Of a DNA stretch of 14,266 nucleotides, positions 620 to 14,266 are shown piece by piece. Position numbers and translations under genes: made by a program. Positions within the stretch are counted from its first letter, which is position 1; each line of letters begins with the position of its first letter. Source of the DNA: a virus (taxonomy: Duplodnaviria > Heunggongvirae > Uroviricota > Caudoviricetes); IMG/VR virus record IMGVR_UViG_2703718840_000012; one strand, written 5' to 3'. The notes below the pieces were generated by a model. The model ran no database searches and was not told the DNA's origin. It worked only from the letters and a program-made list of their open reading frames with translations.

Positions 620-891
620 GTATTCGTATTGAAATTGGCGAACGTTATGTCGTTACCAGTGACAGCTTTCAGTTTATTCTCCACGAGAAAAAGAGAGCGG
701 AAAGCGGTAAAAACGCCGGTCAGGAATGGCTGTCGGTGGTTGGTTATTACCCGAAATTAAGCCAGCTCGTTTCCGGCCTGATGCATCACGATATTCTGAC
801 CGGAAGCGCAAAGTCTTTTGCTGATTTAAACGTGCAGGTTGAGCAACTCAGCAAGCGTTGTTCAGAGGCTTTTGGCTCATATGGCCGTTAA
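616..891 (+). CDS. hypothetical phage early-operon protein
   Basis: ATG at 616 with GGAGA at 604-608; the 3' end overlaps the gpA start at 881. Compact, overlapping organisation typical of a phage operon. Confidence 0.6.
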   Translation: MSIRIEIGERYVVTSDSFQFILHEKKRAESGKNAGQEWLSVVGYYPKLSQLVSGLMHHDILTGSAKSFADLNVQVEQLSKRCSEAFGSYGR

Positions 892-3157
892 AGCCTCCGG
901 GCGTTTTGTCCCTCCGTCAGCATTTGCCGCAGGCACCGGTAAGGCGTTTACCGGTGCTTATGCATGGAACGCGCCACGCGAGGCTGTCGGGCGCGAAAGA
1001 CCCCTTACACGTGACGAGATGCGTCAGGTGCAAGGTGTTTTATCCACGATTAACCGCCTGCCTTACTTTTTGCGCTCGCTGTTTACGTCACGCTATGACT
1101 ACATCCGGCGCAATAAAAGCCCGGTGCACGGGTTTTATTTTCTCACATCCACTTTTCAGCGTCGTTTATGGCCGCGCATTGAGCGTGTGAATCAGCGCCA
1201 TGAAATGAACACCGACGCGTCGTTGCTGTTTCTGGCAGAGCGTGACCATTATGCGCGTCTGCCGGGGATGAATGACAAGGAGCTGAAAAAGTTTGCCGCC
1301 CGTATCTCATCGCAGCTTTTCATGATGTATGAGGAACTCTGCGATGCCTGGGTGGATGCGCATGGCGAAAAAGAATCGCTGTTTACGGATGAGGCGCAGG
1401 CTCACCTCTATGGTCATGTTGCTGGTGCTGCACGTGCTTTCAATATTTCCCCGCTCTACTGGAAAAAATACCGTAAAGGGCAGATGACCAAGAGGCAGGC
1501 ATATTCTGCCATTGCCCGTCTGTTTAACGATGAGTGGTGGACCCATCAGCTTAAAGGCCAGCGTATGCGCTGGCATGAGGCGTTACTGATTGCTGTCGGG
1601 GAGGTCAATAAAGACCGTTCTCCTTATGCCAGTAAACATGCCATTCGTGATGTGCGTGCACGCCGCCAGGCAAATCTGGAATTTCTTAAATCGTGTGATC
1701 TCGAAAACAGGGAAACCGGCGAGCGCATCGACCTTATCAGTAAGGTGATGGGCAGTATTTCTAATCCTGAAATTCGCCGGATGGAGCTGATGAACACCAT
1801 TGCCGGTATTGAGCGTTACGCCGCAGCAGAGGGTGATGTGGGGATGTTTATCACGCTGACCGCGCCGTCAAAGTATCACCCGACACGTCAGGTCAGAAAA
1901 GGCGAAAGTAAAACCGTCCAGCTAAATCACGGCTGGAACGATGAGGCATTTAATCCAAAGGATGCGCAGCGTTATCTCTGCCGTATCTGGAGCCTGATGC
2001 GCACGGCATTCAAGGATAATGATTTACAGGTCTACGGTTTGCGTGTCGTCGAGCCACACCACGACGGAACGCCGCACTGGCATATGATGCTTTTTTGTAA
2101 TCCGCGCCAGCGTAACCAGATTATCGAAATCATGCGTCGCTATGCGCTCAAAGAGGATGGCGATGAAAGAGGAGCCGCGCGAAACCGTTTTCAGGCAAAA
2201 CACCTTAACCGGGGCGGTGCTGCGGGGTATATCGCGAAATACATCTCAAAAAACATCGACGGCTATGCACTGGATGGTCAGCTCGATAACGATACCGGCA
2301 GGCCGCTGAAAGACACTGCTGCGGCTGTTACCGCATGGGCGTCAACGTGGCGCATCCCGCAATTTAAAACGGTTGGTCTGCCAACAATGGGGGCTTACCG
2401 TGAACTACGCAAATTGCCGCGCGGCGTCAGCATTGCTGATGAGTTTGACGAGCGCGTCGAGGCTGCACGCGCCGCCGCAGACAGTGGTGATTTTGCGTTG
2501 TATATCAGCGCGCAGGGTGGGGCAAATGTCCCGCGCGATTGTCAGACTGTCAGAGTCGCCCGTAGCCCGTCGGATGACGTTAACGAGTACGAGGAAGAGG
2601 TCGAGAGGGTGGTCGGCATTTACGCGCCGCATCTCGGCGCGCGTCATATTCATATCACCAGAACGACGGACTGGCGCATTGTGCCGAAAGTTCCGGTCGT
2701 TGAGCCTTTGACTTTAAAAAGCGGCATCGCCGCGCCTCGGAGTCCTGTCAATAACTGTGGAAAGCTCACCGGTGGTGATACTTCGTTACCGGCTCCCACA
2801 CCTTCTGAGCACGCCGCAGCAGTGCTTAATCTGGTAGATGACGGTGTTATCGAATGGAATGACCAGGAGGTCGTGAGGGCGCTCAGAGGTGCATTAAAAC
2901 ACGGTCTGAGAAGACCAAACCGTCAGCAAAGAAACGGAAGCCCGTTAAAACCGCATGAAATAGCGCCATCGGCCAGACTGACCCGGTCGGAACGAATGCA
3001 AATTACCCGTATCCGCGTTGACCTTGCTCAGAACGGTATCAGGCCACAGCGATGGGAGCTTGAGGCGCTGGCGCGTGGCGCGACCGTAAATTATGACGGG
3101 GAAAAATTCACGTATCCGGTCGCTGATGAGTGGCCGGGATTCTCAACAAACATATAA
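881..3157 (+). CDS. A: P2-type replication initiation endonuclease gpA (rolling-circle initiator)
   Basis: ORF-track 839..3157 starts at a TTG; the ATG at 881 gives MAVKASGRFVPPSAFAAGTGK..., which I recognise as the P2 gpA N-terminus. Length (~758 aa) fits gpA and it contains the HWHMMLF block. Recognition is from memory, not a search. Confidence 0.9.
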   Translation: MAVKASGRFVPPSAFAAGTGKAFTGAYAWNAPREAVGRERPLTRDEMRQVQGVLSTINRLPYFLRSLFTSRYDYIRRNKSPVHGFYFLTSTFQRRLWPRIERVNQRHEMNTDASLLFLAERDHYARLPGMNDKELKKFAARISSQLFMMYEELCDAWVDAHGEKESLFTDEAQAHLYGHVAGAARAFNISPLYWKKYRKGQMTKRQAYSAIARLFNDEWWTHQLKGQRMRWHEALLIAVGEVNKDRSPYASKHAIRDVRARRQANLEFLKSCDLENRETGERIDLISKVMGSISNPEIRRMELMNTIAGIERYAAAEGDVGMFITLTAPSKYHPTRQVRKGESKTVQLNHGWNDEAFNPKDAQRYLCRIWSLMRTAFKDNDLQVYGLRVVEPHHDGTPHWHMMLFCNPRQRNQIIEIMRRYALKEDGDERGAARNRFQAKHLNRGGAAGYIAKYISKNIDGYALDGQLDNDTGRPLKDTAAAVTAWASTWRIPQFKTVGLPTMGAYRELRKLPRGVSIADEFDERVEAARAAADSGDFALYISAQGGANVPRDCQTVRVARSPSDDVNEYEEEVERVVGIYAPHLGARHIHITRTTDWRIVPKVPVVEPLTLKSGIAAPRSPVNNCGKLTGGDTSLPAPTPSEHAAAVLNLVDDGVIEWNDQEVVRALRGALKHGLRRPNRQQRNGSPLKPHEIAPSARLTRSERMQITRIRVDLAQNGIRPQRWELEALARGATVNYDGEKFTYPVADEWPGFSTNI

Positions 3158-3218: not shown

Positions 3219-3479
3219 ATGCGGAACTGCGTGGCGATCTTGCTTTGGAAGCATGTCATTATGACTAATGCATACATTACTAGCTATGCGTCCGGTTCCG
3301 CCATTGTACTCGTGCAAGAGTCTGCGGCTGATGGCTATTGTTTACAAATTATGGTCAAAGAGAATCTGACCCTCTACGAGTTGGTCGGAGGGACTGAGAT
3401 CGTCAGTGATAACTGCAGCCGTATGGGAGAAATCAATAATCCCAACCGTCCATATTTCTACCTTCACGCGTGCCCATAA
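3219..3479 (+). CDS. hypothetical small protein downstream of A (orf91-like position); start may be ATG 3261
   Basis: ORF-track ORF; no strong RBS at either candidate start. Composition is intermediate between the backbone and the AT-rich cargo. Confidence 0.3.
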   Translation: MRNCVAILLWKHVIMTNAYITSYASGSAIVLVQESAADGYCLQIMVKENLTLYELVGGTEIVSDNCSRMGEINNPNRPYFYLHACP

Positions 3480-3644
3480 TCTGTCACCACGTTGACCATA
3501 GAAAACCCCGTCGACGCTGAAACTCGCTTTCAGTGCTGGCGGGGGTGAACAACGAGCTTGCGAGGCGTTAGGGATGTCGAAATTTCATATGACTGTTCGC
3601 TTTAATGCTTAACGAAGTCATGTTGAGTTAATAACATTTTTTCG

Positions 3645-5189
3645 TTAAGCGCTGTGTTCCTTGTCGAATAAGTTCACTTCTTCTGGTGTAATATCATTAT
3701 CCATTTCTTCGAATGCATCTAAATCCACAATTTTTGTTTTTTTCAAAATTGATAGTATTTTCTGTTTGTTTTTACTTTTGGCTGAACCCGGAATCCACTC
3801 TACATCCCACAGGCCATCAATGGTAAATGTTTTTTTTCCCTTGAGTTCATCATTTATGCGTTGACATAGGGCTGTTTTGTAATCGCCTTCCCATTGTGTG
3901 TGTATCTTCCCTTGAACTCGTTGAAACCAAATATCTAACATTTCAGTATTTGGTTGTTTACCTAGTTTACAATGAAGTTGTTGTAACTTGCCAAATTTGA
4001 GTTCATCGTCGTCATAAAGGAAGGTCAAGAGTTTTGCGAAAATAGCCATTCCCACTGGGTAGGTGGTTGGGTTTTTAGCCATGATGCTTGAAATAATTCC
4101 AAGCATTGCATCTAGTTGATGCCCACTATTTGTGATCTTTTTCTTCCTAAATAATTTTCGCAAGAAATCATTTAAATATCTAACTGTAATTTTGGAGTTT
4201 TGATGTTTTAAAGAAAATAAATATATTGCATACAACATTTTCTGTAGGGAGTTGAACGACTTTTCTATAATATATTCTTTTTTTGCTGATTTAAGGGAGT
4301 GAAGAATGATGTCGTCATGTAGTTCTGTTTTTCTTGAGTTTAAATCAAGCCCAAACTCACCTAAGACCTCAACCAAACACTTTGAGATTTTGTCCAAATC
4401 ATCTTTACTGCTTGAAAATATTCGATAATCATCTCTGTAGCGAACTACTTTGTAATCCGTTATTTTTTGCTCTTCAGTTTTTTTTCTTAGCTGTAAATCA
4501 ATTTCGCCTAAAATTAATTCGGCAAATGTATCCATCAACGTACTACCCAATGGTATTCCGTTTGTCTGATTACTCATCATCATCTGGATATGAGTGTCAA
4601 TCAATCGTCCTGGGTTATTGTTATTTTCTTTCTTTTTGGCCTCTTCTTTTGAGATGAATACCCATTCAAAGCTATGAGTGTAAATAGAAGGGTAGAAGTT
4701 TGAAATATCTGTGCTGAACATGAACTCATACTCAAGAGCCAATGAAAGACTTTTTTGTTCAAAATCTTCCCACCAGTTTAAAACAGATGCAGCTACGTTT
4801 GAGGTGTTCTTTTTGCTCACTGGGGTACTTGAGCATAAAAAAAGATCATTAGACTCAAACTCTCTAAATTTATTCTTTATAGCCTTCCAGTTGGAAGGGG
4901 ATGTAATAAGTTTACAAAAATACACGTAGTATAGAGGATTAATTAGTGTTATTCGTCGCCAGCTATATAAGCCATCTTTGCTGACTAAAACCTCGTAATT
5001 TATATTCTTCCCCATCAATGACTTGGAGTCAGGTTGGAAGTTGATTTTACCTTCATCTATCGCGGAGTTGATTTCTTCAAGCAAGGAAGAAAAATCGACA
5101 TAACTGGGTAGCTCCAGAGTAGTGTATGAATCATGCTGCAGAAAATACTTAAGCGCTCTACCAGTAGTTAATTCATAAATCTTTTTCAT
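3645..5189 (-). CDS. reverse transcriptase, Abi/UG-like single-gene type with ~220-aa C-terminal extension
   Basis: Translation shows RT motifs in order: SWRRITLINP (motif 2), FSTDISNFYPSI (motif A, catalytic D), NGIPLGSTLMDTFAELIL (motif B), VVRYRDDYRIF (YxDD motif C), GLDLNSRKT (motif D/E). ATG at 5189 (MKKIYELT...) is preferred; the ORF-track start at 5315 is a TTG and the extension reads as Cys/His-rich junk running into the cos flank. Same position and orientation as old in P2. Confidence 0.8.
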   Translation of the reverse strand: MKKIYELTTGRALKYFLQHDSYTTLELPSYVDFSSLLEEINSAIDEGKINFQPDSKSLMGKNINYEVLVSKDGLYSWRRITLINPLYYVYFCKLITSPSNWKAIKNKFREFESNDLFLCSSTPVSKKNTSNVAASVLNWWEDFEQKSLSLALEYEFMFSTDISNFYPSIYTHSFEWVFISKEEAKKKENNNNPGRLIDTHIQMMMSNQTNGIPLGSTLMDTFAELILGEIDLQLRKKTEEQKITDYKVVRYRDDYRIFSSSKDDLDKISKCLVEVLGEFGLDLNSRKTELHDDIILHSLKSAKKEYIIEKSFNSLQKMLYAIYLFSLKHQNSKITVRYLNDFLRKLFRKKKITNSGHQLDAMLGIISSIMAKNPTTYPVGMAIFAKLLTFLYDDDELKFGKLQQLHCKLGKQPNTEMLDIWFQRVQGKIHTQWEGDYKTALCQRINDELKGKKTFTIDGLWDVEWIPGSAKSKNKQKILSILKKTKIVDLDAFEEMDNDITPEEVNLFDKEHSA

Positions 5190-5395
5190 AATTAGTGATT
5201 TCTTCTTAAGTTGCGCACAAATAACTACCTGTTTTCTATCATGATAACGATGCGAATGCGAGCAATTCAGGAAGTGCATTACTCTGCATCGAAGCGCACG
5301 CAAGTCAGAGAACAATAACTGCCTGGCGACATCAGGACTGGCGCGCTAGTTGAGTGGTCATGCAACTGCATTAAAACCGCCCCATGAAGCGGGCG

Positions 5396-5414
5396 GGCGA
5401 GGCGGGGAAAGCAC
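5396..5414. other. P2-type cos site (19-nt cohesive-end sequence GGCGAGGCGGGGAAAGCAC)
   Basis: Exact 19-nt string ggcgaggcggggaaagcac inside a GC-rich island between the two AT-rich RT genes. It matches the P2/186 cohesive-end sequence as I recall it, and sits where cos is expected, between the old-slot gene and Q. Confidence 0.65.
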
Positions 5415-5452
5415 TGCGCGCTAAACGATGTCGCTGGCTTGCAGTTACCCGG

Positions 5453-5481
5453 TTGAAATTCTTATTTTTTTGTTGCATTAT
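5453..5481 (+). promoter_or_regulatory. candidate sigma70 promoter for the RT2 leader/operon (TTGAAA-17 nt-CATTAT)
   Basis: -35 ttgaaa at 5453-5458, 17-nt spacer, -10 cattat at 5476-5481, immediately right of cos and about 250 nt upstream of the RT2 start. Sequence-only call. Confidence 0.25.
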
Positions 5482-5527
5482 TCTTAGCGCACCAGCGATT
5501 CGCTTGGTATGCGGCAGTCAACAACAT

Positions 5528-5722
5528 TAAATTGTCAGTTTTTGCTTTTACAAAAAAGCGTCCACTATGGACCTATCAGCGAGGCCCCACCGTCGTCAAC
5601 TACGATGGTGCCGTAGCCGACGACATTACGTACGGTCGAAAGATAGCAGAGGCTGTTGCTGACAATTGTTGATGTAAGCATCTCTGCTGTTCCACCCTTG
5701 AGTATGGGAAGACCGTACGTAA
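5528..5722 (+). ncRNA. candidate structured leader / retron-like ncRNA (msr-msd-like) upstream of RT2
   Basis: Nested and crossing inverted repeats: 9-bp aattgtcag (5530-5538) vs ctgacaatt (5659-5667), extendable to ~14 bp with a bulge; a two-tier hairpin at 5591-5622; a perfect 12-bp repeat ttacgtacggtc (5626-5637) vs gaccgtacgtaa (5711-5722) ending 18 nt before the RT2 ATG. Architecture is ncRNA -> RT -> effector as in retrons. Boundaries are approximate. Confidence 0.3.
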
Positions 5723-5739
5723 CTTTGAATTTGAATGGT

Positions 5740-6930
5740 ATGTTTATGGATAAATTTAAACCATACAGCAAATCCAATGCTCCTATCACAACACTTGAAA
5801 AGTTGTCAAAGGCTTTATCGATTTCTGTTGAAGAGCTTAAAGCTATTGCAGAATTACCATTAGATGAGAAATATACTCTAAAAGAAATTCCCAAAATTGA
5901 CGGAAGCAAACGGATTGTCTACTCCCTGCATCCTAAAATGAGATTATTACAGAGTAGAATTAATAAACGTATCTTTAAGGAATTGGTTGTTTTTCCTTCA
6001 TTTTTGTTTGGTTCAGTTCCCAGTAAAAATGATGTTTTAAATTCTAATGTCAAACGTGACTATGTTTCATGTGCAAAGGCTCATTGTGGAGCAAAAACAG
6101 TTCTCAAGGTGGATATAAGTAATTTTTTCGATAATATCCATAGAGATCTGGTTAGGAGCGTGTTTGAGGAGATATTGCATATTAAGGATGAGGCTCTTGA
6201 ATACTTGGTGGAAATATGTACTAAGGATGATTTTGTCGTACAGGGGGCCTTAACATCAAGCTATATAGCAACTTTGTGTTTATTCGCTGTTGAAGGGGAT
6301 GTGGTAAGACGTGCGCAGAGGAAAGGACTTGTTTATACGCGTTTGGTAGATGATATTACCGTGTCATCTAAAATAAGTAATTATGATTTTTCTCAAATGC
6401 AAAGCCATATAGAGAGGATGCTTTCTGAGCATGACTTGCCGATAAATAAGCGCAAAACTAAAATATTTCACTGTTCATCTGAACCTATAAAAGTACATGG
6501 TTTAAGAGTTGACTATGACTCACCTCGACTACCATCCGATGAAGTCAAAAGAATCAGGGCATCTATACATAATTTGAAATTACTGGCGGCAAAAAATAAC
6601 ACAAAAACAAGTGTTGCATACAGAAAAGAATTCAATAGATGTATGGGGAGAGTGAATAAGCTTGGCCGTGTTGCGCATGAAAAATATGAATCATTCAAGA
6701 AACAGTTGCAGGCAATAAAACCGATGCCATCTAAAAGAGATGTTGCTGTGATTGATGCAGCTATAAAAAGTTTAGAGTTGTCGTATTCGAAAGGTAATCA
6801 AAATAAACATTGGTATAAAAGAAAATATGATTTGACGAGATATAAGATGATTATTCTTACTCGCTCTGAATCATTTAAAGAAAAACTGGAGTGTTTTAAA
6901 TCTAGATTGGCATCTTTAAAACCATTATGA
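5740..6930 (+). CDS. retron-type reverse transcriptase (divergent catalytic motifs)
   Basis: Translation shows YTLKEIPKIDGSKRIVYSLHP (motifs 1-2), HCGAKTVLKVDISNFFDNI (motif A), VVQGALTSSYIATL (motif B), YTRLVDDI (motif C, both Asp present), INKRKTKI, then VHGLRVDY...VKRIRASIHNL, resembling the retron RT VTG/thumb region. Start is ambiguous among ATG 5704, 5740 and 5746, none with a strong SD; the ORF-track start 5656 is a TTG. Confidence 0.85.
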   Translation: MFMDKFKPYSKSNAPITTLEKLSKALSISVEELKAIAELPLDEKYTLKEIPKIDGSKRIVYSLHPKMRLLQSRINKRIFKELVVFPSFLFGSVPSKNDVLNSNVKRDYVSCAKAHCGAKTVLKVDISNFFDNIHRDLVRSVFEEILHIKDEALEYLVEICTKDDFVVQGALTSSYIATLCLFAVEGDVVRRAQRKGLVYTRLVDDITVSSKISNYDFSQMQSHIERMLSEHDLPINKRKTKIFHCSSEPIKVHGLRVDYDSPRLPSDEVKRIRASIHNLKLLAAKNNTKTSVAYRKEFNRCMGRVNKLGRVAHEKYESFKKQLQAIKPMPSKRDVAVIDAAIKSLELSYSKGNQNKHWYKRKYDLTRYKMIILTRSESFKEKLECFKSRLASLKPL

Positions 6931-7634
6931 ATGCAAATATTAGACTTCTCAAATATATTGTCGGTGTGTCGTCAGCTCTTTTTTTGATTTTTTCGCTAAT
7001 TTCTCTTTTTGAAACTATTCAGAATGAAAAGCTATATGAGCGTGATATATGCTTCGATAGCCAGTGCTTAAAATTTTTTGCGGAAAAAACATCTGGTATA
7101 GTAATGTATTTTCAGGCGTTTGGATGGCTTATAACAACTTTTGTTACCGTTTTTGGTGTTATGATTGCTTTGATGACATATAACGCTGGAGTTAAAAATA
7201 ATAATAATAGTAATTACACTAGTCATCTGACGATGTTTAGAGAATTTGCAAGTGCTGAGTTAACTAAAAGAAGTAGCATCTATCCAGAGAAAGTTAATTT
7301 TTTTAGATGGTATAGGGTTATGTTCCCTGAAGCGCAAGGCGGTGATATATCTGTTTCGAGAGATTATCTAGAAATAATATCTAGAATCAAATGTGTTATT
7401 GAGGAAGCCAATGCACATATTACAGAGGAAAATAAAGACTATAAATATAAAACTCATCAGAGAAAAATGATGGCTGTTTTGGATGAAATCGGTATATCGA
7501 TTAGTAATGGGCCCAAAAATATTTTTATTGAGGTTGAGAGTCAAATTTTGGATTATATCGATACTATTAATTTGTCATTTTGTCACTCCTCATCAGTGAT
7601 AGAATTAAGTAGAGTAAAAAGGAAGTATATATAG
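6927..7634 (+). CDS. two-transmembrane-helix membrane protein with ~150-aa soluble C-terminal domain; candidate effector of the RT2 module
   Basis: ATG overlaps the RT2 stop (ATGA at 6927-6930), indicating translational coupling. Two hydrophobic stretches (YIVGVSSALFLIFSLISLF and IVMYFQAFGWLITTFVTVFGVMIALMTY) near the N-terminus; same AT-rich composition as RT2. Confidence 0.8.
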   Translation: MNANIRLLKYIVGVSSALFLIFSLISLFETIQNEKLYERDICFDSQCLKFFAEKTSGIVMYFQAFGWLITTFVTVFGVMIALMTYNAGVKNNNNSNYTSHLTMFREFASAELTKRSSIYPEKVNFFRWYRVMFPEAQGGDISVSRDYLEIISRIKCVIEEANAHITEENKDYKYKTHQRKMMAVLDEIGISISNGPKNIFIEVESQILDYIDTINLSFCHSSSVIELSRVKRKYI

Positions 7635-7636
7635 TT

Positions 7637-7672
7637 AAGTTGGCGGGATTGCATTCCGCCAACTTTATATAT
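7637..7672. terminator. GC-rich hairpin with T-rich tail between the cargo operon and the 3' end of Q; candidate bidirectional terminator
   Basis: aagttggcgg (7637-7646) pairs with ccgccaactt (7656-7665) around a 9-nt loop, followed by tttatatattt. Lies 3 nt after the 2TM stop and 5 nt before the Q stop on the other strand. Confidence 0.45.
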
Positions 7673-7676
7673 TTAC

Positions 7677-8696
7677 TTATAAGTTATAATCAAGGAATTT
7701 TATGACTTCCATATCTAACCATTCATTTATTGACTTTATTCTCTCCTGTAATGGAATGAGTTCATTGCGGACAAAGACCTTTGCCACTTTTTCAATATCT
7801 CCTAGTGACCCGACATTCTCCGGCTTACCGCCCATCAACTGAAAGGGGATGCGGTGTGCGTCCAGGAGATCTGCGGCGCTGACTTTTTTGATATTAAAAA
7901 AATCGTCCTTCGTCGCCACTTCACTGAGGGGGATAATTTTAATGCCGTCGGCTTTCCCCTGTGGGGCATAGAGAAACAGGTTTTTAAAGTTGTTGCGGCC
8001 TTTTGACTTAACCATGTTTTCGCGAAGCATTTCGATATCGTTGCGGTCCTGCACGGCATCGGTGACGTACATGATGTATCCGGCATGAGCGCCGTTTTCG
8101 TAATACTTGCGGCGGAACAGCGTGGCCGACTCATTCAGCCAGGCAGAGTTAAGGGCGCTGAGATATTCCGGCAGGCCGTACAGCTCCTGATTAATATCAG
8201 GCTCCAGCAGGTGAAACACGGAGCCGGGCGCGAAGGCTGTCGGCTCGTTGAAGGACGGCACCCACCAGTAAACATCCTCCTCCACGCCACGACGGGTATA
8301 TTTGGCCGGTGAGGTTTCCAGTCTGATGACCTTACCGGTGGTGCTGTAACGCTTTTCCAGAAACGCATTACCGAACACCAGAAAATCCAGCACAAAGCGG
8401 CTGAAATCCTGCTGGGACAGCCACGGGTGCGGGATAAACGTTGAAGCCAGAATATTGCGTTTAACGTAAATCGGTGAGCTGTGATGCACGGCAGCACGCA
8501 GGCTTTTTGCCAGACCGGTAAAGCTGACCGGTGGCTCATACCATCTGCCGTTACTGATGCACTCGACGTAATCCAGAATATCACGGCGGTCGAGTACCGG
8601 CACCGGCTCACCAAAGGTGAATGCCTCCATTTTCGGGGCGCTGGCAGTCATTGTTTTCACCGCTGGCTGCGGTGTTTTCCCTTTTTTCTTACTCAT
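7677..8696 (-). CDS. Q: P2-type capsid portal protein gpQ
   Basis: 339-aa ORF (P2 gpQ is similar in size), GGAG RBS 9 nt upstream, ATG overlapping the stop of the upstream terminase ORF (ATGA at 8693-8696), cos-proximal and on the leftward strand as in P2. Confidence 0.88.
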   Translation of the reverse strand: MSKKKGKTPQPAVKTMTASAPKMEAFTFGEPVPVLDRRDILDYVECISNGRWYEPPVSFTGLAKSLRAAVHHSSPIYVKRNILASTFIPHPWLSQQDFSRFVLDFLVFGNAFLEKRYSTTGKVIRLETSPAKYTRRGVEEDVYWWVPSFNEPTAFAPGSVFHLLEPDINQELYGLPEYLSALNSAWLNESATLFRRKYYENGAHAGYIMYVTDAVQDRNDIEMLRENMVKSKGRNNFKNLFLYAPQGKADGIKIIPLSEVATKDDFFNIKKVSAADLLDAHRIPFQLMGGKPENVGSLGDIEKVAKVFVRNELIPLQERIKSINEWLDMEVIKFLDYNL

Positions 8697-9607
8697 CAGT
8701 AAAACTCCAGAATGGTGGATGTCAGCGGGGTGCTGATACCGGCGGTGAGTGGCTCATTTAACAGGGCGTGCATGGTCGCCCAGGCGAGATCGGCGTGGCT
8801 GGCTTCCTCGCTGCGGCTGGCCTCATAGGTGGCGCTGCGTCCGCTGCTGGTCATGGTCTTGCGGATAGCCATAAACGAGCTGGTGATGTCGGTGGCGCTG
8901 ACGTCATATTCCAGACAGCCACGGCGGATAACGTCTTTTGCCTTGAGCACCATTGCGGTTTTCATTTCCGGCGTGTAGCGGATATCGCGCGCGGCGGGAT
9001 AGAACGAGCGCACGAGCTGGAACACGCCGACACCGAGGCCGGTGGCATCAATCCCGATGTATTCAACGTTATATTTTTCGGTGAGTTTGCGGATGGATTC
9101 CGCCTGGGTGGCAAAGTCCATGCCTTTCCACTGGTGACGCTCAAGTATTCTGAATTTGCCACCGGCCACCACCGGCGGTGCCAGTACCACGCATCCGGCG
9201 CTGTCGCCACGGTGTGACGGGTCGTAACCAATCCATACCGGGCGGGAGCCGAACGGATTTGCGGCAAACGGCGCATAGTCTTCCCATTCTTCCAGCGTGT
9301 CGACCATGCAACGTTGCAGCTCCTCGAACGGGAACACCGACGCCTTGTCGTCAACAAATTCACACATGAACAGGTTTTTAAAATCGTCGGCGCTGTTTTC
9401 ACGTTTGAGCTGCTCAATGTCGAACAGTGTGCAGCCACCTTTCAGGGCGTCCTCAATGGTGACAATCTGCCGCCACTGGCCGTCCGCACAGAGAAGCCCA
9501 CCGGCAAGGGCGTTATGACTGACGTCGATTTCCACGCGTTCGGCGGCGCTGGCGCGTCCCCGGTTGAACAGTTCACCCGACCAGAACGGGTACCCTGGAT
9601 AATCCGG
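8696..9607 (-). pseudogene. P: terminase ATPase/nuclease subunit gpP, C-terminal ~300 aa only (5' half deleted)
   Basis: Reading frame is continuous with the Q overlap and is open upstream of the GTG at 9535 back to a TAA at 9608-9610, with no plausible start or N-terminal ATPase region. About 300 aa are present against the ~590 expected for gpP. Confidence 0.8.
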
Positions 9608-9846
9608 TTAAACGTGGTGAACAGGTTATCGAACAGGTCACGCTGATGAAACCCAATGCCGGGACGCTGCGCGGTGTCAGTCTGGCTGCGGTCGCAAACT
9701 CCGAAGTCGATGCACTGATTAAAGTGCTGCCGCGCATGACGGCACCGATGCTGACCGAGCAGGAGGTCGCCGCGCTGGAACTGCCTGACCTTGTGGCGCT
9801 GGCCGGTAAGGTGGTCGGTTTTTTGTCGCCGAACTCGGTGCAGTGA
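9568..9846 (+). pseudogene. E: tail assembly chaperone gpE, 5'-truncated at the deletion junction (first ATG at 9646)
   Basis: Frame open from 9568. Ends ...GKVVGFLSPNSVQ with the heptamer T TTT TTG (9819-9825) in the correct phase for the -1 shift that makes E+E' in P2-like phages. Abuts the P fragment on the opposite strand. Confidence 0.6.
9819..9825 (+). other. programmed -1 ribosomal frameshift slippery heptamer (T_TTT_TTG) of the E/E' pair
   Basis: X_XXY_YYZ pattern in phase with the E frame (codons GGT TTT TTG); the -1 frame stays open for ~55 codons to a TGA at 9990-9992. Confidence 0.55.
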
Positions 9847-9898
9847 CGTTTCCGAAAAATCTCTCGGTCGATGACCTGATGGCGGATGTGGCAGTGAT

Positions 9899-10675
9899 AT
9901 TTCACTGGCCGCCATCACCGGCATCAATGCCATCATCGCGGCAGCAGGCGCAATGGGGGCAATCTTCACGACGGTTGGCAGTGCTGTTATGACCGCCATC
10001 GGAGCGATTAGCTGGCCGGTTGTGGCCGTGGTGGCCGCCATTGTCGCCGGGGCGTTGCTTATCCGTAAATACTGGGAGCCTGTCAGCGCATTCTTTGGCG
10101 GTGTGGTGGAAGGGCTGAAAGCGGCATTTGCGCCGGTGGGGGAACTGTTCACGCCACTTAAGCCGGTGTTTGACTGGCTGGGCGAAAAGTTACAGGCCGC
10201 GTGGCAGTGGTTTAAAAACCTGATTGCCCCGGTTAAAGCCACCCAGGACACCCTGAACCGTTGCCGTGACACGGGCGTCATGTTCGGGCAGGCACTGGCT
10301 GACGCGTTGATGCTGCCGCTTAATGCGTTCAACAAACTGCGCAGTGGTATTGACTGGGTACTGGAAAAACTCGGTGTTATCAACAAAGAGTCAGACACAC
10401 TTGACCAGACCGCCGCCAGAACTCATGCCGCCACGTATGGCACCGGTGGTTATATTCCGGCGACCAGCTCTTATGCAGGCTATCAGGCTTATCAGCCGGT
10501 TACGGCACCGGCTGGCCGCTCTTATGTGGACCAGAGTAAAAACGAATATCACATCAGTCTGACGGGCGGTACTGCGCCGGGGACTCAGCTCGACCGCCAG
10601 TTACAGGATGCGCTCGAAAAATATGAGCGGGATAAACGTGCGCGCGCCCGTGCCAGCATGATGCATGACGGTTAA
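9899..10675 (+). pseudogene. T: tail tape measure protein gpT, C-terminal ~240-260 aa only
   Basis: Frame open from 9899, first ATG at 9953, stop at 10673-10675 directly before the U RBS. Hydrophobic segment plus a C-terminal ...ERDKRARARASMMHDG tail typical of P2-like tape measures; far shorter than the ~800 aa expected. Confidence 0.75.
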
Positions 10676-12733: not shown

Positions 12734-12760
12734 AAAAAATAAGCCCGTGTAAGGGAGATT
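12734..12760. other. P2 attachment-site core (attR), 27 bp AAAAAATAAGCCCGTGTAAGGGAGATT
   Basis: Exact 27-nt string at 12734-12760, about 100 nt after ogr and 145 nt before host yegQ, matching the P2 att core as I recall it. The phage-host junction is therefore here. Confidence 0.65.
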
Positions 12761-12904
12761 ACACAGGCTAAGGAGGTGGTTCCTGGTACAGCTAGCATTT
12801 TATGGGTTATGTTTTTCAGCGAAACGGATGATAACCTTAATAAATGCAGCTGTATGTGATCGGTTTCTAAGAATTTTCCATCCGGGAAAAATAATCGAAA
12901 TTAA

Positions 12905-14266
12905 TCACTTACCGTGTGGGTTACGCGTGGTTTCCCCGGAGAAATTACGCATCAGCAGAGCGTAATTGAGCTCAAGATCCTGCGGGACCGGGAGCCACAC
13001 AGTATAACCATCGCCTGGTGCGACCGGCATCGCTTCACCTATGGCGTTTTCCATGTGCTCAAGGGTAAAGTTAATGTTGCCTTGCGGCGTCATCAGCTCA
13101 AGGCTGTCGCCAACGGAGAATTTATTTTTCACCGCTACCGCCGCGAGGTCCCCCTTGCGCTCACCGGTAAACTCACCAACAAACTGCTGGCGGTCAGAAA
13201 CTGAATAACCGTATTCGTAGTTCTGATAATCGTCGTGAGTATGACGACGCAGGAAACCTTCGGTATAGCCACGATGCGCCAGACCTTCCAGAGTTTCCAG
13301 CAGGCTGGTATCGAACGGTTTGCCCGCAGCGGCGTCATCGATAGCTTTACGGTAAACCTGTGCGGTGCGTGCGCAATAGTAGAAAGATTTAGTACGGCCT
13401 TCGATTTTCAGCGAATGCACGCCCATTTTGGTCAGGCGTTCTACATGGGCGATGGCGCGCAGATCTTTCGAGTTCATGATGTAAGTGCCGTGCTCATCTT
13501 CAAACGCGGTCATATACTCGCCCGGACGCTGGGCTTCTTCGATCATAAACACTTTGTCGGTTGGCGCGCCGATACCCAGCGTCGGCTCAACATTTTGCAC
13601 CGGAATCGGCTCGTACTTGTGTACGATGTTGCCAACGTCATCTTCTTTCCCTTCCTGGACGTTGTACTCCCAGCGGCAGGCGTTGGTGCAGGTACCCTGG
13701 TTCGGATCGCGCTTGTTGATATAGCCAGAGAGCAGGCAGCGACCGGAGTAGGCCATGCACAGTGCGCCGTGAACGAAGATCTCGATCTCCATATCCGGCA
13801 CCTGATTGCGGATCTCTTCAATCTCTTCCAGCGACAGCTCGCGAGAGAGGATCACGCGGGTCAGGCCCATTTGCTGCCAGAATTTCACCGTCGCCCAGTT
13901 TACGGCGTTAGCCTGCACCGAGAGGTGGATCGGCATTTCAGGGAAGTGCTCACGCACCAGCATAATCAGCCCTGGATCGGACATAATCAGCGCATCCGGC
14001 CCCATTTCCACCACCGGTTTCAGGTCACGGATAAAGGTTTTCAGCTTGGCGTTGTGCGGTGCAATGTTGACCACGACATAAAACTTTTTCCCCAGCGCGT
14101 GGGCTTCATTGATGCCGAGCTGAAGATTTTCGTGGTTGAATTCGTTGTTGCGCACACGCAGGGAGTAACGCGGCTGGCCCGCATAAACAGCATCTGCGCC
14201 ATAAGCGAAAGCGTAACGCATATTTTTCAGCGTTCCCGCCGGGGAAAGGAGTTCCGGTTTAAACAT
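12905..14266 (-). CDS. yegQ: host peptidase U32-family protein YegQ (TrhP, tRNA hydroxylation)
   Basis: 453-aa ORF MFKPELLSPAGTLKNMRYAFAYGADAVYAG... recognised as E. coli YegQ. The ATG is the last triplet of the window (14264-14266 on the minus strand), so the CDS is complete but its promoter is outside. Confidence 0.92.
   Translation of the reverse strand: MFKPELLSPAGTLKNMRYAFAYGADAVYAGQPRYSLRVRNNEFNHENLQLGINEAHALGKKFYVVVNIAPHNAKLKTFIRDLKPVVEMGPDALIMSDPGLIMLVREHFPEMPIHLSVQANAVNWATVKFWQQMGLTRVILSRELSLEEIEEIRNQVPDMEIEIFVHGALCMAYSGRCLLSGYINKRDPNQGTCTNACRWEYNVQEGKEDDVGNIVHKYEPIPVQNVEPTLGIGAPTDKVFMIEEAQRPGEYMTAFEDEHGTYIMNSKDLRAIAHVERLTKMGVHSLKIEGRTKSFYYCARTAQVYRKAIDDAAAGKPFDTSLLETLEGLAHRGYTEGFLRRHTHDDYQNYEYGYSVSDRQQFVGEFTGERKGDLAAVAVKNKFSVGDSLELMTPQGNINFTLEHMENAIGEAMPVAPGDGYTVWLPVPQDLELNYALLMRNFSGETTRNPHGK

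What the first reader, a model, noticed from the sequence alone, without database searches (positions are those of the whole stretch)
6927..7634. 2-TM protein as likely membrane-acting effector
It has two long hydrophobic helices near the N-terminus followed by a soluble domain and is translationally coupled to RT2. Small membrane proteins coupled to sensor enzymes are a recurring abortive-infection effector design. The soluble C-terminal domain has no motif I can name, so it may be a regulatory or sensing domain of unknown type.
Basis: inference. Interest (0 to 1): 0.55.

Follow-up and report, generated by a model that had tools for sequence, protein, structure and literature searches.

The report
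Known retron Ec48 membrane effector

Summary
The ORF at 6927-7634 (+) is real: 235 aa, two N-terminal hydrophobic helices (about residues 10-29 and 57-85), and a start codon that overlaps the stop of the upstream reverse transcriptase (ATGA). It is not an unknown protein. It matches PADLOC 2TM_IV (E 4e-85), NCBIfam NF038235 'retron Ec48 family effector membrane protein' (227 bits, cut-off 65) and Pfam PF28197. The exact sequence carries the UniRef name 'Retron Ec48 transmembrane protein, TM48_ECOLX'. 57 complete E. coli genomes hold at least 80% of the 2.4-kb retron stretch, the best at 99.9-100% identity. The upstream RT is a type IV retron RT, and the upstream non-coding region equals the published Retron-Eco6 ncRNA. 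Published experiments show this system is an abortive-infection defence triggered by phage inhibitors of RecBCD, and that it needs both the RT active site and the TM helices. How the effector kills has not been demonstrated; membrane damage is inferred. The cytoplasmic domain has no solved or recognisable fold relative. Verdict: observation confirmed, interpretation supported, already known, low interest. One side lead: the type IV retron ncRNA extends beyond its published boundary. It contains a 12-bp helix, strongly supported by covariation, that pairs the reverse-transcription start with the RT leader. The priming architecture looks non-canonical and I could not resolve it.

The parts
5453..5481 (+). 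sigma-70-like promoter of the retron operon (TTGAAA-17-CATTAT)
   Evidence: Consensus scan, 9 of 12 matches. The -35 TTG is conserved in the alignment of related loci. This is a pattern match only; the transcription start was not mapped.
5487..5728 (+). retron ncRNA (msr-msd), the conserved structured RNA upstream of the RT. It contains hairpins 5491-5508, about 5546-5556, 5560-5572 and 5583-5612, and a long-range helix 5509-5538 with 5659-5681.
   Evidence: The stretch is conserved across 19 distinct type IV loci. On A5, 70 pairs are 96.8% paired, 21 pairs show compensatory changes, and 0 of 500 shuffles reach this. Fold z-score is -5.6. Window 5467-5652 equals the published Retron-Eco6 ncRNA string. 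Rfam has no matching family.
5586..5633 (+). probable msd (template of the 48-nt msDNA); boundaries approximate
   Evidence: The published Eco6 RT-DNA string begins at the complement of C5633. The published donor-insertion loop '130;136' maps to 5596-5602, the loop of hairpin 5588-5610; that reading of the column is mine. Reported length is 48 nt, 45 by sequencing. The 3' boundary is inferred from that length.
5626..5637 (+). 5' arm (TTACGTACGGTC) of a conserved 12-bp long-range helix; overlaps the first 8 templated bases
   Evidence: Perfect inverted repeat with 5711-5722. Across 19 loci 96.9% of cells are paired, 9 of 12 pairs show compensatory changes, 0 of 500 shuffles reach this, and slid controls give 22-32%.
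5711..5722 (+). 3' arm (GACCGTACGTAA) of the 12-bp helix, in the RT leader 18-24 nt before the RT start codons
   Evidence: It lies outside the published ncRNA boundary of 5652.
5746..6930 (+). type IV retron reverse transcriptase (394 aa from ATG 5746; alternative starts at 5740 and 5704)
   Evidence: PADLOC RT_IV E 2.4e-176; Pfam RVT_1; RefSeq start. The VDD aspartates are D202/D203 from ATG 5746, which become D216/D217 counted from ATG 5704, the numbering mutated in the Ec48 study.
6927..7634 (+). retron Ec48-family 2TM effector (the finding), 235 aa. TM1 is about 6954-7013, the periplasmic loop with C42/C47 about 7014-7094, TM2 about 7095-7181, and the cytoplasmic helical domain about 7182-7631.
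   Evidence: PADLOC 2TM_IV 4.1e-85; NCBIfam NF038235, 226.7 bits against a cut-off of 65; PF28197; RefSeq annotation at 100% DNA identity; UniRef name TM48_ECOLX; hydropathy; AF2 model.
7637..7675 (+). intrinsic terminator-like hairpin plus T-rich tail that ends the operon
   Evidence: 13-pair stem followed by TATATATTTA, 3 nt after the stop codon.

Best explanation
The ORF encodes the effector subunit of a type IV retron (retron Ec48 = Retron-Eco6), an abortive-infection anti-phage system in the defence hotspot of a P2-like prophage. One operon (promoter about 5453, terminator about 7637) gives a structured ncRNA, the RT and the effector. The effector is translated by coupling to the RT through the ATGA overlap. 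The RT copies part of the ncRNA into a roughly 48-nt msDNA. Published work shows the system 'guards' RecBCD: when phage proteins such as lambda Gam or T7 gp5.9 inhibit RecBCD, the retron is triggered and the cell dies or stops growing before the phage completes its cycle. The effector is anchored by two TM helices, most likely N-in/C-in, with a short periplasmic loop holding two near-invariant cysteines. A 150-residue all-helical cytoplasmic domain hangs from a long extension of TM2. Inferred steps: the cytoplasmic domain receives the signal from the RT-msDNA complex, and the TM hairpin then compromises the inner membrane, probably after oligomerisation. Shown in the literature: the RT active site and residues 3-85 are required, RecBCD inhibition is the trigger, and the outcome is abortive infection. 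Not shown: the killing mechanism itself.
For: Identity comes from PADLOC 2TM_IV and RT_IV, the NCBIfam equivalog NF038235, PF28197 'Retron_Ec48_antiviral', RefSeq 'retron Ec48 family effector membrane protein' at 100% DNA identity, 57 E. coli genomes holding at least 80% of the 2.4-kb stretch, and the exact sequence named TM48_ECOLX. The ncRNA equals the Eco6 ncRNA. The numbering is collinear with the tested system: the delta3-85 deletion removes exactly the two predicted helices, and D216/D217 are the VDD aspartates counted from ATG 5704. Function: Millman et al. preprint 10.1101/2020.06.21.156273 reports that RT D216A/D217A and effector delta3-85 abolish defence, that Gam and gp5.9 induce death only in Ec48 cells, and that the plasmid cannot be established in a recB deletion strain. 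Gam triggering of Retron-Eco6 was reproduced independently in 10.1101/2025.10.22.683967, and defence against T7 in PMC13645617. RT followed by an overlapping 2TM gene is conserved in all ten related loci examined, inside and outside P2 prophages. Family conservation: C42 and C47 at 97-98%; G77, A81 and Y85 at the cytoplasmic end of TM2; and F104, E111, Y129, Y147, H177, Q178, E204 and Y234 at 91-100%.
Against: Palka et al. 2022 (PMC8989520) found that the Eco6 accessory protein expressed alone was not toxic. A simple model of a constitutive pore-forming toxin held in check by RT-msDNA is therefore unlikely, and activation must be positive or need a partner. I found no text reporting membrane depolarisation or permeabilisation for this protein. 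The pore idea in the preprint is argued by analogy with CBASS TM effectors. The cytoplasmic domain is more conserved than the TM helices, which also fits a role in which the membrane is only an anchor. Topology (N-in/C-in) rests on a weak positive-inside signal.
Confidence: 0.9

Rival explanations
1. Same protein and same retron, but the TM hairpin is only a membrane tether or localisation device. The conserved cytoplasmic domain would be the active part, for example an enzyme or binding module acting on a cytoplasmic or membrane-proximal target, or a scaffold that recruits a host factor.
For: The cytoplasmic domain holds most of the near-invariant residues, including polar ones that could form a site (E111, H177, Q178, E204), while the TM helices are conserved mainly in hydrophobicity. 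The protein alone is not toxic when over-expressed. The type V sister retron senses the same trigger with a non-membrane cold-shock-domain effector.
Confidence: 0.3
2. The ORF is a phage lysis (holin-like) or morphogenesis protein of the P2-like prophage and is unrelated to the RT.
For: It is a small membrane protein encoded next to the portal gene in a prophage.
Against: The only PHROG match has unknown function. There is no structural match to viral proteins. It is always found overlapping a type IV retron RT, including in non-prophage chromosomal contexts. The P2 holin of the same phage type lies elsewhere.
Confidence: 0.01
3. The effector's abundance, rather than its activity, is what is controlled. 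The conserved pairing between the reverse-transcription start and the RT leader would make translation of the RT-2TM message depend on the state of the msDNA, by analogy with the type VI retron riboregulator.
For: The 12-bp helix and a second helix (5645-5650 with 5683-5688) link the template region to the leader and covary. The 2TM gene has no Shine-Dalgarno sequence of its own and depends on RT translation. In the sister type VI retron, msDNA derepresses effector translation and RecBCD is proposed to turn over msDNA.
Against: Over-expressed effector alone is not toxic, so more protein should not be enough to kill. The helix ends 10-13 nt upstream of the Shine-Dalgarno-like sequences of the homologues and does not cover them. 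Ec48 makes abundant msDNA constitutively. The helix may simply be part of the priming structure.
Confidence: 0.12

Closest known systems
Retron Ec48 / Retron-Eco6 (type IV retron) effector, UniProt-style name TM48_ECOLX
   Same: Same protein. The exact sequence carries that name. The family HMMs match above their cut-offs. The RT, the ncRNA, the gene order and the P2-like prophage context are the same.
   Different: Nothing detectable. The prophage around it here is defective.
Retron-Sen1 (Se72), type V retron
   Same: Closely related clade 3 RT and the same trigger, RecBCD inhibition by Gam.
   Different: Its effector is a small cold-shock-domain protein, not a membrane protein.
Type VI retron (Retron-Vpa2) small toxic protein and hybrid RNA
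   Same: Same RT clade. The toxic effector has an essential hydrophobic helix, and a conserved RNA element links the msd to expression of downstream coding sequence.
   Different: Type VI uses a 7-nt direct repeat, so the msDNA is complementary to the riboregulator. It makes no detectable msDNA at rest and has an HTH repressor. Here the repeat is inverted, so the template RNA is complementary to the leader, and msDNA is abundant at rest.
CBASS transmembrane effectors
   Same: N-terminal TM helices and an abortive-infection outcome. This analogy motivated the pore hypothesis for Ec48.
   Different: CBASS effectors are activated by cyclic nucleotides through dedicated sensor domains. There is no sequence or fold relationship.
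P2 Old protein
   Same: Occupies the same variable locus between gene A and the portal gene of P2-like phages, and is also activated when RecBCD is inhibited (for the function; the P2 gene map is from my own knowledge).
   Different: Old is a soluble ATPase-nuclease, unrelated in sequence.

Membership tests
Retron Ec48-family effector membrane protein (NCBIfam NF038235 / Pfam PF28197 / PADLOC 2TM_IV) | Full-length match to the family profile above the curated cut-off | tested here: met
   NF038235 scores 226.7 bits against a cut-off of 65, covering residues 11-222 of 235. 2TM_IV gives E 4.1e-85 over residues 3-235. PF28197 is precomputed for the identical protein P0001.
Retron Ec48-family effector membrane protein (NCBIfam NF038235 / Pfam PF28197 / PADLOC 2TM_IV) | Two N-terminal transmembrane helices followed by a cytoplasmic domain | tested here: met
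   Hydropathy peaks at residues 10-29 and 57-85. AF2 helices 2-33 and 56-112 at pLDDT 95.8. Polar content of these columns is low family-wide. No dedicated TM predictor was run.
Type IV retron system (Mestre et al. 2020 classification) | Effector gene immediately downstream of, or overlapping, a clade 3 / type IV retron RT | tested here: met
   RT_IV E 2.4e-176. ATGA overlap at 6927-6930. The paper describes this arrangement.
Type IV retron system (Mestre et al. 2020 classification) | Cognate structured ncRNA (msr-msd) adjacent to the RT | tested here: met
   Window 5467-5652 equals the published Eco6 ncRNA. The conserved structure is supported by covariation.
Type IV retron system (Mestre et al. 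2020 classification) | Canonical a1/a2 inverted repeats flanking msr-msd, with a branching G next to the template start | tested here: inconclusive
   The long helix 5509-5538 with 5659-5681 lies 25 nt from the published RT-DNA start at 5633. The strand that pairs next to the start (GACC 5711-5714, followed by G5715) is downstream of the msd.
Type IV retron system (Mestre et al. 2020 classification) | Production of msDNA and anti-phage defence that depends on the RT and the effector | not testable with these tools
   Shown for Ec48 in the literature, not for this particular locus. The locus has the same effector sequence and the same ncRNA sequence.
Phage holins / morphogenesis proteins | Match to a holin or structural PHROG, Pfam family or viral fold | tested here: not met
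   phrog_10895 has unknown function. Local Pfam-A gave no hit. BFVD gave no match at E<=1e-3.

The most novel reading that the evidence does not exclude
The protein is known, but the type IV retron RNA that controls it may be non-canonical. The published Eco6 ncRNA boundary (window 5652) cuts off about 75 nt of conserved RNA. That RNA contains one strand of the closing helix and a 12-bp helix that pairs the first templated bases with the RT leader. Priming may use a downstream strand (GACC-G5715), or the RNA may switch between two mutually exclusive folds. Either would couple msDNA synthesis or trimming, which could depend on RecBCD, to expression or activation of the RT-2TM module.
Probability: 0.15. 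Interest if true: 0.6.

Novelty: already known. Interest (0 to 1): 0.15.

Why it matters
As an annotation, it settles the ORF. It is a named defence effector (Retron-Eco6) and, with an AbiP2 reverse transcriptase on the other side of the cos site, it forms a two-RT defence island in a decayed P2-like prophage. No new biology follows from the ORF itself. Two open questions remain. First, how the Ec48 effector kills, given that it is not toxic alone and its cytoplasmic domain has no known fold. The high-confidence model and the list of near-invariant residues (C42, C47, F104, E111, Y129, Y147, H177, Q178, E204, Y234) give concrete mutagenesis targets. Second, how type IV retrons prime reverse transcription. 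A retron census reported no RT-DNA from clade 3 constructs and suggested the ncRNA might be non-canonical. The extra conserved helices found here offer a testable reason, namely that the constructs may have been truncated.

Tried and rejected
- **Rfam.** Neither the gathering nor the permissive threshold gave a retron family for 5300-5800; the only weak hits were to eukaryotic RNAs.
- **12-bp inverted repeat as canonical a1/a2.** I first read it this way. That would put the msd at 5663-5710. I dropped it because the published RT-DNA maps to 5633 and below.
- **Long helix 5509-5538 with 5659-5681 as a1/a2, with msd at 5611-5658.** I dropped this for the same reason.
- **DNA folding of candidate msDNAs.** Neither of the two dropped 48-nt candidates folds better than shuffles. 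The revised candidate (complement of 5586-5633) was not folded as DNA.
- **The search for related loci with diverse effector alignments.** It failed because no stretch was conserved enough.
- **Single distant effectors against viral contigs.** Nothing was found.
- **Motif scan of metagenome and viral contigs.** Most returned loci were chance hits. nhmmer kept 24 loci overall; among the newly scanned contigs about a dozen matched, most of them identical to the window or to loci already held.
- **PDB sequence search with the family profile.** Only designed coiled coils at E>=0.018.
- **Original Ec48 paper (PMC179752).** It is not held, so the published branch point could not be checked.
- **Alternative upstream partner for 5634-5660.** Duplex prediction found one, but it is not consistently supported in the homologues, so I did not adopt it.

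Full report
**Context.** The window is part of a P2-like prophage.
- Genes found: replication gene A (839-3157), a portal gene (7677-8696, minus strand), a terminase fragment, gpU, gpD and an Ogr-type zinc finger.
- It lies next to the CyaR sRNA (12737-12822, Rfam 100.7 bits) and a U32 peptidase gene.
- Between gene A and the portal gene sits a low-GC island at about 3500-7700, with 30-39% GC over most of its length (44-49% across the cos/ncRNA stretch at about 5000-5750) against 51-60% in the flanking prophage genes.
- The island carries an AbiP2-type reverse transcriptase on the minus strand (3645-5189/5315; PADLOC AbiP2 E 4e-160).
- On the plus strand it carries a second RT followed by the ORF in question.

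**The observation.** ORF 6927-7634 (+) encodes 235 aa.
- Hydropathy gives two segments only, at about residues 10-29 and 57-85.
- The RT stop (TGA, 6928-6930) overlaps the ORF's ATG (6927-6929). No Shine-Dalgarno-like sequence precedes it.
The gene is real: the family has 233 representative clusters at E<=1e-3 in the 50%-identity library, almost all 215-265 aa and aligned end to end.

**Identity.**
- The protein matches PADLOC 2TM_IV (E 4.1e-85, full length) and the NCBIfam equivalog NF038235, 'retron Ec48 family effector membrane protein' (226.7 bits, cut-off 65).
- Its homologues carry Pfam PF28197, 'Retron_Ec48_antiviral'. The local Pfam-A copy does not return this family.
- 57 complete E. 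coli genomes hold at least 80% of the 2.4-kb stretch 5316-7680, the best at 99.9-100% identity, and RefSeq annotates the gene with that name there. Phage pro147 also carries it.
- The exact sequence was seen on at least 1000 contigs and carries the UniRef name 'Retron Ec48 transmembrane protein, RepID=TM48_ECOLX'.
- The upstream RT is PADLOC RT_IV (E 2.4e-176).
- Two details tie the locus to the experimentally studied system. The published effector deletion delta3-85 removes exactly the two predicted helices. The published RT mutations D216A/D217A are the VDD aspartates when counted from ATG 5704.
- The Retron-Eco6 ncRNA string in the supplement of the retron census (PMC10849725, terminal 488) aligns to window 5467-5652. 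184 of 185 aligned bases are identical, and the three single-base gaps differ between the paper's two strings, so they are text-reading errors.

**What the literature shows.**
- In the preprint of Millman et al. (10.1101/2020.06.21.156273), Ec48 needs both the RT catalytic site and the effector TM region.
- Escape mutants of lambda and T7 map to the RecBCD inhibitors Gam and gp5.9. Expressing these kills only cells that carry Ec48. The plasmid cannot be established in a recB deletion strain.
- The authors propose that the retron guards RecBCD. They hypothesise, by analogy with CBASS TM effectors, that the TM protein carries out the killing.
- Gam triggering of Retron-Eco6 and defence against T7 were reproduced by other groups. 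The related type V retron Se72 senses the same trigger with an unrelated effector.
- Mestre et al. (PMC7736814) classify the system as type IV and note that the effector has no identifiable domain.
- Palka et al. (PMC8989520) found the Eco6 accessory protein not toxic when expressed alone. This argues against a plain toxin-antitoxin release model.

**The protein itself.**
- With a 12-sequence alignment AF2 gave pLDDT 78. With 101 family members it gave pLDDT 95.8 and pTM 0.82.
- The model is all-helical. TM1 is helix 2-33. A short loop helix spans 45-54. TM2 continues without a break into the cytoplasm (56-112). Four further helices follow, to residue 218.
- BFVD gives nothing at E<=1e-3. A profile search of PDB sequences finds only designed coiled coils. 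The RT's nearest solved relatives are Ec86 and other retron RTs.
- I conclude that no solved structure exists for this effector family, and its cytoplasmic domain has no recognisable relative.
- Near-invariant positions in the family: C42 and C47 in the inter-helix loop, which I infer form a periplasmic disulfide; G77, A81 and Y85 at the inner end of TM2; and F104, E111, Y129, G139, Y147, H177, Q178, G189, E204, F218 and Y234 in the cytoplasmic domain.
- The cytoplasmic domain is more conserved than the TM helices.

**Operon and synteny.**
- A promoter-like site lies at 5453-5481 and a 13-pair terminator hairpin at 7637-7665, bracketing ncRNA, RT and effector.
- In ten related loci the RT and the effector overlap by 4-14 nt. 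These loci come from Serratia, Enterobacter, Klebsiella, Photorhabdus, Proteus, Buttiauxella, Xenorhabdus, Kosakonia and metagenomes. Some sit in P2-like prophages and some elsewhere.
- Three more distant viral-contig loci (RT 45-47% identical) also carry the effector.

**Mechanism.** I commit to the published model. The protein is the abortive-infection effector of a RecBCD-guarding retron.
- The TM hairpin is necessary; this is shown.
- The cytoplasmic domain receives the activating signal from the RT-msDNA complex; this is inferred.
- Death follows from membrane damage after oligomerisation; this is inferred.
- The main rival keeps the identity but makes the cytoplasmic domain the active part and the membrane only an anchor.
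- Holin or morphogenesis readings are excluded.

**Side lead: the ncRNA.**
- About 240 nt upstream of the RT (5487-5728) are conserved across loci whose effectors are only 37-68% identical.
- RNAalifold and pair counting support hairpins at 5491-5508, 5546-5556, 5560-5572 and 5583-5612, plus a long-range helix 5509-5538 with 5659-5681 that has nine compensatory pairs.
- In addition, a perfect 12-bp inverted repeat joins 5626-5637 to 5711-5722.
  - Over 19 distinct loci, 96.9% of cells pair and 9 of 12 pairs show compensatory changes.
  - No shuffle out of 500 reaches this, and slid controls give 22-32%.
  - The three distant loci keep the helix with entirely different sequences, for example AGGCTTGGCCA with TGGCCAAGCCT.
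  - G-U wobbles in some loci point to pairing at the RNA level.
- A second helix, 5645-5650 with 5683-5688, covaries more weakly.
- By my estimate of linker lengths, these helices and the long closing helix cannot all form at once. The single-sequence MFE prefers the 12-bp helix.
- The census RT-DNA string starts at the complement of C5633, inside the 5' arm of the 12-bp helix. With the reported 48 nt, the msd is then about 5586-5633 and includes hairpin 5588-5610.
- The strand that pairs immediately 3' of that start is GACC 5711-5714, followed by G5715. It lies downstream of the msd, not at the 5' end of the msr as in canonical retrons. The long closing helix is 25 nt away.
- The published ncRNA boundary omits 5653-5728. 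The census reports no RT-DNA from clade 3 constructs and suggests a non-canonical ncRNA.
- I could not locate the branch point or decide between three readings: a pseudoknot, a permuted priming helix, or a switch.
- A link to effector translation, by analogy with the type VI riboregulator, is possible but weakly supported.

**Verdict.** Observation confirmed, interpretation supported, and the element is already known as the Retron-Eco6 (Ec48) effector. Interest in the finding as given is low. The ncRNA architecture is the only part that may hold something new.

Noticed in passing
window 5487-5728 (arms 5626-5637 and 5711-5722; 5645-5650 and 5683-5688; 5509-5538 and 5659-5681): The type IV retron ncRNA is conserved about 75 nt beyond its published 3' boundary. 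It contains a 12-bp helix with 9 of 12 compensatory pairs over 19 loci, which joins the reverse-transcription start region to the RT leader. By my estimate this helix cannot form together with the long closing helix. The branch point and the true a1/a2 remain unresolved.
   Followed up: partly
window 3645-5315 (-), real start probably ATG at 5189: A second, unrelated defence reverse transcriptase of the AbiP2 (DRT) type (PADLOC E 4e-160) lies divergently next to the retron, so the hotspot carries two RT-based systems. In an otherwise identical E. coli locus an IS5 sits just beside it, and that AbiP2 CDS is annotated at 462 aa.
   Followed up: partly
window 5396-5414: An exact match to the 19-nt P2 cohesive-end sequence GGCGAGGCGGGGAAAGCAC (recalled from my own knowledge of P2; 0 matches expected by chance) lies between the AbiP2 gene and the retron. 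The surrounding 5332-5422 is shared with many P2-like phages, often near the ends of the records. The retron therefore sits between cos and the portal gene, and AbiP2 on the other side of cos.
   Followed up: partly
window 8696-10675: The prophage is defective. Only the C-terminal half of the large terminase remains (279 aa against 589 aa in a related phage). It is followed, after about 400 nt, by a C-terminal fragment of the tail tape-measure protein. Capsid genes and most tail genes appear to be deleted, while the defence island is intact.
   Followed up: partly
window 12737-12822 (-) and 12905-14266 (-): The CyaR/RyeE sRNA (Rfam 100.7 bits) and a U32 peptidase gene flank the Ogr end of the prophage, which marks the chromosomal insertion site.
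   Followed up: no
window 7050-7067 (residues C42 and C47 of the effector): Two cysteines in a CxxxxC arrangement in the loop between the TM helices are conserved in 97-98% of 101 family members. This suggests a periplasmic disulfide, which I have not seen mentioned in the papers I read.
   Followed up: partly
window 3219-3479 (+): A small ORF (86 aa) between gene A and the AbiP2 RT matches phrog_13272 (E 2e-54, unknown function). It has no Pfam domain.
   Followed up: no
window 7677-8696 (-): RefSeq annotates the portal gene in the identical E. coli locus as a frameshifted pseudogene. This agrees with the decay of the prophage.
   Followed up: no
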